Below are positions 27,421 through 27,578 of a DNA stretch of 64,000 nt, piece after piece (the first letter of the stretch is position 1; every line of letters begins with the position of its first letter). The translations under genes were made by a program, and so were the position numbers. This stretch comes from Escherichia coli (lineage in GTDB: Bacteria > Pseudomonadota > Gammaproteobacteria > Enterobacterales > Enterobacteriaceae): NCBI RefSeq assembly GCF_030013595.1, contig NZ_CP122770.1; one strand, 5' to 3'. The notes beneath the pieces were generated by a model. It saw nothing but the letters and a program-made list of their open reading frames with translations, had not been told where the DNA came from and did not search any database.

Positions 27421-27539
27421 CTGTGGATAAGCTGGACACAGCAGTCCACAGCAGGCATACCGCCACACCCTCAGAGAATTGAGCGTTTTTTAGTCACAAT
27501 AATGACATTTGACTGTGTGTGGATTCAGTTATTAGAATA

Positions 27540-27555
27540 CTGTATATGCATACAG
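27540..27555 (+). promoter_or_regulatory. LexA box (SOS operator) of impCAB
   Basis: CTGTATATGCATACAG fits CTGT-N8-ACAG; TTGACT -35-like hexamer upstream. Confidence 0.75.
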
Positions 27556-27578
27556 CAATAGAAAAGGGAGATGAGAAC

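What the first reader, a model, noticed from the sequence alone, without database searches (positions are those of the whole stretch)
27500..27560. SOS operators on impCAB (canonical) and on the colicin gene (degenerate overlapping pair at 40651-40682)
impCAB carries CTGTATATGCATACAG overlapping its -10 region. The colicin upstream region carries TACTGTATATGTATCCATATGCGTAAGCAG, which looks like two overlapping, partly degenerate LexA boxes as is typical for colicin promoters. Together with psiB this gives the plasmid both SOS-responsive and SOS-suppressing functions.
Basis: partly seen in the sequence, partly recalled or inferred. Interest (0 to 1): 0.3.

Follow-up and report, generated by a model that had tools for sequence, protein, structure and literature searches.

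The report
Known SOS operators on IncI1 plasmid
The plasmid's mutagenic-repair operon impCAB carries a strong, textbook LexA repressor site, and its colicin Ia gene carries one weaker LexA site plus an iron-repressor (Fur) site rather than the claimed pair of LexA sites; all of this is already described for this plasmid family.

Summary
The window is an IncI1-type plasmid.

**impCAB.** TACTGTATATGCATACAGCA (27538-27557) is the best LexA-like site in the 64 kb. It scores 3.3 on my heterology index and 24.8 bits. None of 200 random 64-kb sequences scored below 5. It abuts the -10 hexamer and covers the expected transcription start. A 2025 study of the IncI1 plasmid pTF2 reports the same two-box layout, with ImpC and ImpA raised 21-fold and 9-fold in a hyper-induced-SOS lexA mutant.

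**Colicin Ia.** Only one box passes: TACTGTATATGTATCCATAT (40682-40663, minus strand; index 10.3, 15 bits; perfect left arm, CAT instead of CAG on the right). The supposed second box scores 20.3 (0.3 bits), a level found once per 177 bp. It is offset by 12 bp, not the 15 bp seen in ColE1. The literature describes one LexA site plus a Fur site for the near-identical colicin Ib promoter. A 17/19 Fur box sits at 40722-40740, just upstream of the -35.

psiB is present (15764-16198).

**Verdict:** real and functional, already known; the dual-box reading is not supported.

The parts
27509..27514 (+). impCAB promoter -35 hexamer TTGACT
   Evidence: Promoter scan: 10 of 12 matches, 18-nt spacer. Invariant in 6 plasmid variants.
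27533..27538 (+). impCAB promoter -10 hexamer TAGAAT
   Evidence: One variant has TATAAT.
27538..27557 (.). Main LexA operator of impCAB, TACTGTATATGCATACAGCA (16-mer core 27540-27555)
   Evidence: HI18 3.33, best in the window; none below 5 in 200 random sequences. 24.8 bits. Arms CTGTATA and ATACAG are invariant, and only the 3 central spacer positions vary across 6 variants. It differs at one spacer base from the pTF2 box, which has published HI 1.60 and lies 21 nt before the ATG.
27511..27530 (-). Weak second LexA-like box AACTGAATCCACACACAGTC, overlapping the -35 and spacer
   Evidence: HI18 13.0, 10.4 bits. Identical to the second imp box listed for pTF2 (published HI 13.49, 48 nt before the ATG). 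CTG and CAG are invariant in 6 variants. Function is inferred only.
27579..27827 (+). impC (DinI-like, 82 aa)
   Evidence: Pfam DinI, E = 8e-18. 100% nucleotide identity to an annotated DinI-like gene.
27824..28261 (+). impA (UmuD-like, Peptidase S24)
   Evidence: Pfam Peptidase_S24, E = 3e-24. Annotated umuD in relatives.
28261..29535 (+). impB (UmuC-like Y-family polymerase)
   Evidence: Pfam IMS, IMS_C and DUF4113.
40708..40713 (-). cia promoter -35 hexamer TTGACA
40685..40690 (-). cia promoter -10 hexamer TAAATT
   Evidence: 17-nt spacer.
40663..40682 (-). Single LexA box of the colicin Ia promoter, TACTGTATATGTATCCATAT (left arm perfect; right arm CCAT instead of ACAG/CCAG)
   Evidence: HI18 10.3: left half 0.0, right half 10.3. 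15.1 bits. It starts 2 nt after the -10. CTGTATATGTATCCA is nearly invariant across 17 natural variants. The literature reports one LexA site in Pcib and mitomycin C induction.
40651..40670 (-).
   Evidence: HI18 20.3, 0.28 bits, a score reached once per 177 bp. The offset is 12 bp, against 15 bp in ColE1. It scores 17-22 in every natural variant scored.
40722..40740 (-). Fur box GTTAATGATAATCACTATC, 8 nt upstream of the -35
   Evidence: 17 of 19 matches to GATAATGATAATCATTATC; 0 expected in 100 shuffles. Core conserved in the metagenome variants. The literature places a Fur site upstream of the -35 of Pcib and shows iron-dependent repression.
38731..40611 (-). cia, colicin Ia (626 aa)
   Evidence: Pfam Colicin_Ia and Colicin pore-forming domain. 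100% identical to annotated colicin Ia genes.
38374..38709 (+). iia, colicin Ia immunity gene (111 aa)
   Evidence: Annotated 'colicin 1A immunity protein' in 100%-identical records.
15764..16198 (-). psiB (plasmid SOS inhibition protein B)
   Evidence: Pfam PsiB, E = 9e-57. 97.9% nucleotide identity to annotated psiB.
15048..15767 (-). psiA
   Evidence: Pfam PsiA, E = 1e-41.

Best explanation
There are two separate, already described SOS-controlled promoters on an IncI1-type plasmid.

(1) impCAB. A LexA dimer binds the near-consensus operator at 27538-27557. This operator abuts the -10 hexamer and covers the expected transcription start, so it blocks RNA polymerase. A weak box over the -35 and spacer (27511-27530) may add to repression. 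After DNA damage, RecA filaments trigger LexA self-cleavage and the operon is transcribed. It yields ImpC (a DinI-like RecA modulator), ImpA (UmuD-like, self-cleaving) and ImpB (a UmuC-like translesion polymerase).

(2) Colicin Ia. The promoter is 'double-locked' by two different repressors, not by two LexA dimers. One moderate-affinity LexA box (40682-40663) lies just downstream of the -10 and covers the start region. One Fur box (40740-40722) lies just upstream of the -35. Full expression therefore needs both DNA damage and iron limitation.

psiB, in the leading region, encodes the RecA-binding SOS inhibitor. It dampens SOS induction in a new recipient during conjugation.

Shown here: the sequences, scores, positions, conservation and gene identities. 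Taken from the literature: LexA dependence of ImpCAB, and mitomycin C and iron-chelator induction of the near-identical cib promoter. Inferred: steric occlusion of RNA polymerase, a role for the weak imp box, and PsiB delaying induction of imp and cia on transfer.
For: imp:
- HI18 3.33, unique in the window, with none below 5 in 200 random sequences; 24.8 bits.
- Promoter geometry.
- Arms invariant and spacer variable across 6 plasmid variants.
- The same two boxes, at the same distances from the ATG (21 and 48 nt), are reported for pTF2, where ImpC and ImpA rise 21-fold and 9-fold in a hyper-induced-SOS lexA mutant (PMC12211044).

cia:
- Box 1 has HI18 10.3 and 15.1 bits, and lies directly after the -10.
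- The Fur box matches 17 of 19 with 0 expected.
- The promoter is 97.7% identical to ColIb-P9 cib.
[quoted passage not shown] ColIa and ColIb are both stated to be under Fur and LexA.

Single-box bacteriocin promoters exist: CloDF13 has one box with HI18 0.5.

Gene identities come from Pfam.
Against: - No binding or expression experiment was done on this sequence.
- cia box 1 lacks the G of the right-arm CAG, which is invariant in all 18 training sites. Its 15.1 bits falls just below the training range of 16.5-29.3, so LexA affinity may be low.
- The distal AAGCAG is fixed in all 15 length-matched operator variants aligned, and its distance from box 1 is kept in all but one contig, which has a 2-bp deletion. 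This leaves room for some contribution from that half-site.
- HI18 is my own re-derivation from 18 sites, not the original Lewis 1994 matrix. It tracks 10 published HI values, mostly within about 3 units and at most 4.
- The window holds more sites with HI18 below 12 than random sequence does (8 against 1.1), so scores near 10 are less exceptional here than the Markov model suggests.
Confidence: 0.85

Rival explanations
1. [quoted passage not shown]
For: - The 30-nt string starts with CTG and ends with CAG.
- AAGCAGTTA is conserved in the variants.
- Most colicin promoters are reported to carry two overlapping boxes (PMC2994835; PMC3879352).
Against: - The second register scores HI18 20.3 and 0.28 bits, a chance-level score (1 per 177 bp). 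It stays at 17-22 in all variants scored.
- The offset is 12 bp, not the 15 bp measured in the real ColE1 sequence, where both boxes score 4.5 and 8.6. At 12 bp the inner half-sites would overlap by 4 bp.
- The literature assigns one LexA site to Pcib and contrasts ColIa/ColIb with the dual-box colicins.
Confidence: 0.08
2. The operator is a decayed remnant of an ancestral dual box, shortened by 3 bp (CTG-N22-CAG instead of CTG-N25-CAG). The distal half-site is either non-functional or gives only a minor auxiliary contact, and Fur has taken over the role of the second lock.
For: - Outer CTG to CAG spans 28 bp here, against 31 bp in ColE1.
- The outer flanks form an imperfect inverted repeat, AATTAATACTG...CAGTTAATT (read directly).
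- Variation between the halves is concentrated in 7 nt while the spacing is kept.
Against: - Apart from the LexA half-sites, I see no sequence similarity between the Ia operator and the ColE1 operator (by eye only, from the sequences; no alignment was run).
- No intermediate forms were found.
- Conservation of AAGCAG is not specific, because the whole 5' UTR is nearly invariant.
Confidence: 0.1
3. The segment after box 1 acts at the RNA level. The 5' end of the cia mRNA forms a hairpin (GUAUAUG-UAUC-CAUAUGC) that affects stability or translation, which would explain why only wobble-compatible transitions occur in the variable 7 nt.
For: - The predicted hairpin is in the minimum-free-energy fold; the z-score of the UTR is -2.05.
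- 98.3% of cells stay paired across 15 variants, all changes being one-sided (U-A to U-G, G-C to G-U).
Against: - There are no two-sided compensatory changes, and the shuffle control is uninformative.
- The +2 slide control is still 92.5% paired, because the tract alternates pyrimidine and purine.
- The transcription start is not known from my data, so the 5' arm may not be transcribed.
Confidence: 0.1

Closest known systems
impCAB operon of IncI1 plasmids (TP110 and pTF2) and of the Shigella virulence plasmid
   Same: Same gene order: impC (DinI-like), impA (UmuD-like), impB (UmuC-like). The same two LexA boxes lie at the same distances from the impC ATG (21 and 48 nt). The weak box is identical, and the main box differs at one central spacer base from pTF2. 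More than 2,400 PLSDB plasmids carry this promoter at 95% identity or more.
   Different: Only a single-base spacer polymorphism (G instead of A at position 11 of the 20-mer). It raises my index from 1.3 to 3.3, which is still very strong.
Colicin Ib promoter (Pcib) of pColIb-P9 / pCol1B9 of Salmonella SL1344
   Same: 97.7% identity over the 311-bp promoter region. It has the same -35, -10, LexA box 1 and Fur box. It is described as having one LexA site plus a Fur site upstream of the -35, and is induced by mitomycin C and by iron chelation.
   Different: The window encodes colicin Ia, not Ib; the immunity gene and C-terminal domain differ. One base differs in the variable segment after box 1 (G instead of A), one just before box 1, and one inside the Fur box.
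ColE1-type dual overlapping SOS boxes (cea promoter)
   Same: The LexA operator lies immediately downstream of the -10 of a colicin gene. Box 1 has the same left arm and the CC-A right-arm start (CTGTATAT....CCA).
   Different: ColE1 has two boxes offset by 15 bp, with HI18 4.5 and 8.6. Colicin Ia has one scoring box (10.3), no second box (20.3, offset 12), and a Fur box instead.
Cloacin DF13 promoter (single SOS box)
   Same: A single LexA box downstream of the -10 of a bacteriocin gene.
   Different: The CloDF13 box is near-perfect (HI18 0.5), whereas the Ia box is moderate (10.3). I did not scan the CloDF13 promoter for a Fur box.
Chromosomal umuDC and dinI of E. coli
   Same: Homologous proteins and a LexA box at the promoter. 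The umuD and dinI boxes are in my training set.
   Different: On the plasmid the dinI-like gene is fused into the same operon, upstream of the umuDC-like genes.

Membership tests
LexA operator (gammaproteobacterial SOS box), impCAB main site 27538-27557 | 16-bp palindrome CTGT-N8-ACAG with an AT-rich spacer | tested here: met
   CTGTATATGCATACAG matches exactly.
LexA operator (gammaproteobacterial SOS box), impCAB main site 27538-27557 | Score within the range of validated E. coli sites (heterology index well below about 15) | tested here: met
   HI18 3.33 and 24.8 bits. Training sites score 0.6-12.8 leave-one-out and 16.5-29.3 bits.
LexA operator (gammaproteobacterial SOS box), impCAB main site 27538-27557 | Overlaps the promoter or start site of the regulated gene | tested here: met
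   It shares one base with the -10 TAGAAT and covers the expected +1. The transcription start itself was not determined.
LexA operator (gammaproteobacterial SOS box), impCAB main site 27538-27557 | LexA-dependent, DNA-damage-inducible expression | not testable with these tools
   Literature only: ImpC 21-fold and ImpA 9-fold up in a hyper-induced-SOS lexA mutant carrying pTF2, whose operator differs by 1 nt (PMC12211044).
LexA operator, colicin Ia box 1 (40663-40682) | CTG-N10-CAG core | tested here: not met
   The sequence is CTGTATATGTATCCAT. The right arm ends in CAT (CAC in some variants), not CAG.
LexA operator, colicin Ia box 1 (40663-40682) | Overall PWM or heterology score in the range of functional sites | tested here: met
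   HI18 10.3, inside the leave-one-out range of training sites (up to 12.8). 15.1 bits is slightly below the lowest training site at 16.5. This is a borderline pass.
LexA operator, colicin Ia box 1 (40663-40682) | Position at the promoter, and SOS-inducible expression | tested here: met
   Position is met: the box begins 2 nt after the -10. Inducibility is known only from the literature on the 97.7%-identical Pcib.
Colicin-type dual overlapping SOS boxes | A second box whose 16-mer shares 1 bp with the first (15-bp offset) | tested here: not met
   The register at offset 15 scores HI18 44.5. The only register ending in CAG is at offset 12. ColE1 measured here has an offset of 15.
Colicin-type dual overlapping SOS boxes | The second box itself scores as a LexA site | tested here: not met
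   HI18 20.3 and 0.28 bits, reached once per 177 bp. It scores 17-22 in the 16 natural variants scored.
Fur box | 19-bp match to GATAATGATAATCATTATC at a promoter | tested here: met
   GTTAATGATAATCACTATC matches 17 of 19, with 0 expected in shuffles, and lies 8 nt upstream of the -35. Iron regulation is known from the literature only.
umuDC-like mutagenesis operon (imp/muc/sam/rum) | S24 self-cleaving UmuD-like protein followed by a Y-family polymerase; in imp, preceded by a DinI-like gene | tested here: met
   Pfam hits: DinI, Peptidase_S24, and IMS with IMS_C. The genes overlap or abut each other.
PsiB SOS inhibitor | PsiB family protein encoded next to psiA in the leading region, near ssb and ardA | tested here: met
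   Pfam PsiB E = 9e-57 and PsiA E = 1e-41. ssb and ardA lie nearby.

The most novel reading that the evidence does not exclude
The colicin Ia/Ib operator may not be a plain single box. The invariant distal AAGCAG half-site is held at a fixed distance from box 1 (CTG-N22-CAG). The 7 nt in between carry almost all the natural variation in the promoter and UTR, seen either as transitions only or as a length-preserving +2/-2 indel pair. This could reflect a non-canonical second LexA contact or an mRNA 5' hairpin that tunes colicin expression.
Probability: 0.08. Interest if true: 0.35.

Novelty: already known. Interest (0 to 1): 0.1.

Why it matters
This is mainly a correct annotation. On this widespread family of resistance and colicin plasmids, error-prone repair (impCAB) is switched on by DNA damage alone. 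The colicin needs both DNA damage and iron starvation. That matters for predicting when antibiotics that induce the SOS response will trigger plasmid-borne mutagenesis or toxin release in the gut. None of it is new: the imp operator, the LexA-plus-Fur double lock on colicins Ia and Ib, and PsiB are all described. The useful outcome here is correcting the dual-box interpretation and adding the Fur box and the weak second imp box.

Tried and rejected
1. The strict pattern CTGT-N8-ACAG is not significant on its own (2 matches against 0.84 expected). Its second match, 57871-57886, has a GC-rich spacer and scores above 15, so I treat it as chance.
2. I could not obtain the original Lewis 1994 heterology matrix. 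I rebuilt the index from the 18 E. coli boxes printed in PMC3009722 Table 4. I checked it against 10 published HI values from the pTF2 paper; most agree within about 3 units and the largest gap is 4.
3. Every register of the colicin operator was scanned on both strands, here and in 16 natural variants. None gives a second box.
4. Gillor 2008 (PMC2729051), Cascales 2007 (PMC1847374), Mankovich 1986 (PMC213442) and Runyen-Janecky 1999 (PMC96475) are not held. Statements about them rest on what citing papers say, or on my memory.
5. Figure S2 of Nedialkova 2014, which shows the annotated Pcib sequence, is an image and cannot be read.
6. The RNA hairpin test on the variable segment was inconclusive: only one-sided changes, and the +2 slide control is nearly as well paired.
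7. Other LexA-like hits with HI18 10-12 (28853, 41978, 47403, 60325, 19886, 31706) lie inside genes or replication-control DNA. I did not pursue them as operators.
8. The ungapped column-by-column variation count dropped 18 of 52 loci for having too many mismatches. The variant list is the more complete record.

Full report
**What the window is.** The imp region (27000-29500) matches thousands of conjugative Escherichia, Salmonella and Shigella plasmids at 95-99.6% identity. These are annotated DinI-like / umuD / Y-family polymerase. The colicin region (38300-41000) is 100% identical to plasmids annotated colicin Ia plus colicin Ia immunity plus yagA. I mapped genes from a near-identical IncI plasmid and checked them with Pfam:

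| Gene | Coordinates | Strand | Pfam family |
|---|---|---|---|
| impC | 27579-27827 | + | DinI |
| impA | 27824-28261 | + | Peptidase_S24 |
| impB | 28261-29535 | + | IMS/IMS_C |
| cia | 38731-40611 | - | Colicin_Ia + pore-forming domain |
| iia | 38374-38709 | + | Colicin E1 (microcin) immunity protein |
| psiB | 15764-16198 | - | PsiB |
| psiA | 15048-15767 | - | PsiA |

ssb and ardA lie near psiB and psiA.

**Scoring tool.** The original heterology-index matrix was not available. I took the 18 E. coli LexA boxes printed in Table 4 of PMC3009722 and applied the published formula, sum of ln[(n_consensus+0.5)/(n_actual+0.5)]. This index, 'HI18', reproduces ten published HI values for plasmid pTF2, mostly within about 3 units and at most 4. 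Leave-one-out values of the training sites run from 0.6 to 12.8. Markov-1 random 64-kb sequences contain on average 0 sites below 5, 0.21 below 10 and 1.1 below 12. A log-odds version gives the training sites 16.5-29.3 bits.

**impCAB.**
- The 20-mer TACTGTATATGCATACAGCA (27538-27557) scores HI18 3.33 and 24.8 bits, by far the best site in the window.
- The only promoter-like site is TTGACT (27509-27514), 18 nt, TAGAAT (27533-27538). The operator therefore shares the last base of the -10 and covers the expected start.
- Across six plasmid variants at 95-100% identity, both arms (CTGTATA, ATACAG) are invariant and only three central spacer bases vary. That is the pattern expected of a LexA site.
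AACTGAATCCACACACAGTC (27511-27530; HI18 13.0; 10.4 bits) overlaps the -35 and spacer.
- Both boxes, at the same distances from the impC ATG (21 and 48 nt), are listed for the IncI1 plasmid pTF2, with published HI 1.60 and 13.49. Proteomics there showed ImpC 21-fold and ImpA 9-fold up in a hyper-induced-SOS lexA mutant (PMC12211044).

This part of the finding is correct and already published.

**Colicin Ia.** The quoted 30-mer is on the minus strand at 40682-40653. The promoter is TTGACA (40713-40708), 17 nt, TAAATT (40690-40685). I scanned every register.
- Only TACTGTATATGTATCCATAT (40682-40663) scores as a LexA site: HI18 10.3, with a perfect left half and all the penalty in the right half, where CAT replaces CAG. 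It scores 15.1 bits.
- The only register that ends on the distal CAG (40670-40651) is offset by 12 bp. It scores 20.3 and 0.28 bits. That level is reached at 361 positions in the window, once per 177 bp.
- The register at the canonical 15-bp offset scores 44.5.
- For comparison I fetched the real ColE1 plasmid. Its cea operator TGCTGTATATAAAACCAGTGGTTATATGTACAGTA has two boxes offset by exactly 15 bp, scoring 4.5 and 8.6.
- CloDF13 has a single near-perfect box, HI18 0.5. Single-box bacteriocin promoters therefore exist.

**Natural variation.** An exact-pattern scan of metagenome contigs for the -10 region returned 53 loci. Together with three plasmid relatives, they give 17 distinct operator variants. 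None of the 16 variants scored has a second register better than 17.1, while box 1 stays at 8.1-12.1, except in three contigs with ATG for CTG, which score 13.7. The dual-box interpretation therefore fails on score, on geometry and across variants.

**What the second lock really is.** GTTAATGATAATCACTATC (40740-40722, minus strand) matches the Fur consensus at 17 of 19 positions, with none expected by chance. It lies 8 nt upstream of the -35. The promoter is 97.7% identical to that of colicin Ib on ColIb-P9. For that promoter:
- Fur provides the 'double-locking' function;
- maximal expression requires mitomycin C plus an iron chelator;

These statements come from PMC4675545, PMC3879352 and a bioRxiv preprint. 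The one-site statement is attributed there to Gillor et al. 2008, which I could not read.

**Mechanism.** The steps below rest on established knowledge of the SOS system and on the papers cited; they were not tested here.
1. LexA bound at 27538-27557, possibly helped by the weak box over the -35, keeps impCAB off.
2. RecA-stimulated LexA cleavage after DNA damage releases it. This gives a UmuD'2C-like translesion polymerase (ImpA'/ImpB) and the DinI-like RecA modulator ImpC.
3. The cia promoter is held by a moderate LexA site over the start region and by Fe-Fur next to the -35, so both signals are needed for full expression.
4. PsiB, in the leading region, binds RecA and limits SOS induction when the plasmid enters a new cell as single-stranded DNA.

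ImpC adds a second RecA-modulating function.

**Residual oddity.** From the -35 to the ATG, almost all natural variation is packed into 7 nt (40665-40659), immediately after the CCA of box 1. All changes there are transitions, and there are two main haplotypes (...CCATATACGTAAGCAG and ...CCATGTATACAAGCAG). CTGTATATGTATCCA and AAGCAGTTA stay fixed or nearly so.
- The two haplotypes can also be read as a +2/-2 indel pair that preserves spacing.
- A hairpin GTATATG-TATC-CATATGC stays 98% paired across variants. The evidence does not discriminate, however, because changes are one-sided only and the +2 slide control is 92.5% paired.

This keeps a small door open for a role of the distal half-site or of an mRNA structure. 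It does not rescue the dual-box claim.

**Verdict.** The imp operator is canonical and strong. The colicin has one moderate LexA box plus a Fur box, not an overlapping pair of LexA boxes. Everything matches published descriptions of IncI1 and ColIb plasmids. Novelty: already known. Interest: low.

Noticed in passing
window 38289-38307 (-), with promoter-like site 38274-38303 (+): A second Fur-box-like sequence, GATAATAATAATCAATAAC (16 of 19 matches), overlaps the -10 (TATTAT) of a promoter-like site about 70 nt upstream of the immunity gene iia. A 2024 preprint states that both cib and imm are Fur-regulated.
   Followed up: partly
window 45452-45471, upstream of ORFs 45167-45436 (-) and 44889-45170 (-): The palindrome TACTGTGTATATACGTAGTA has a perfect LexA-type left arm and TAG instead of CAG on the right (HI18 10.7). 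It lies 16 nt upstream of an 89-aa antitoxin-like ORF, which is followed by a ParE-family toxin (Pfam E = 6e-17). It could be the antitoxin's own operator or a weak LexA site. No sigma-70 promoter was called there.
   Followed up: partly
window 40659-40665 (minus strand TATGCGT), and loci L002-L057: A 7-nt hot spot of transitions lies right after LexA box 1 in an otherwise nearly invariant promoter and 5' UTR. There are two main haplotypes, which might instead be a spacing-preserving +2/-2 indel pair.
   Followed up: partly
L008, L029, L040 (metagenome contigs), position equivalent to window 40680: Three contigs carry ATG instead of CTG in the left arm of cia/cib box 1, raising HI18 from 10.1 to 13.7. 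These may be natural operator-weakening variants.
   Followed up: no
L022 and L006 (metagenome contigs): In L022, unrelated DNA (GGGTCTTCCCCGATCATGGTGGGAAGACTC...) begins inside box 1, after CTGTATATGTAT. This suggests an insertion or rearrangement that splits the operator. L006 has a 2-bp deletion in the variable segment.
   Followed up: no
window 47403-47422 (-): The LexA-like 20-mer CAGTGTATAAATACACGGCA (HI18 10.2) lies at the 5' end of the long repZ/repA ORF 46344-47420. It has GTG and CGG arms and lies in replication-control DNA, so it is probably not a LexA site.
   Followed up: no
whole window: There are more LexA-like 20-mers than random expectation: 8 with HI18 below 12 against 1.1 expected, and 28 below 15 against 9.6. 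Most lie inside coding regions, for example 28853 in impB and 41978 in yagA. This is probably compositional, so scores near 10-12 should be read cautiously.
   Followed up: no
window 13743-14918: A TnpB-family RNA-guided endonuclease gene sits in the leading region between ardA and psiA. The annotation is transferred from a relative at 99.7% identity.
   Followed up: no
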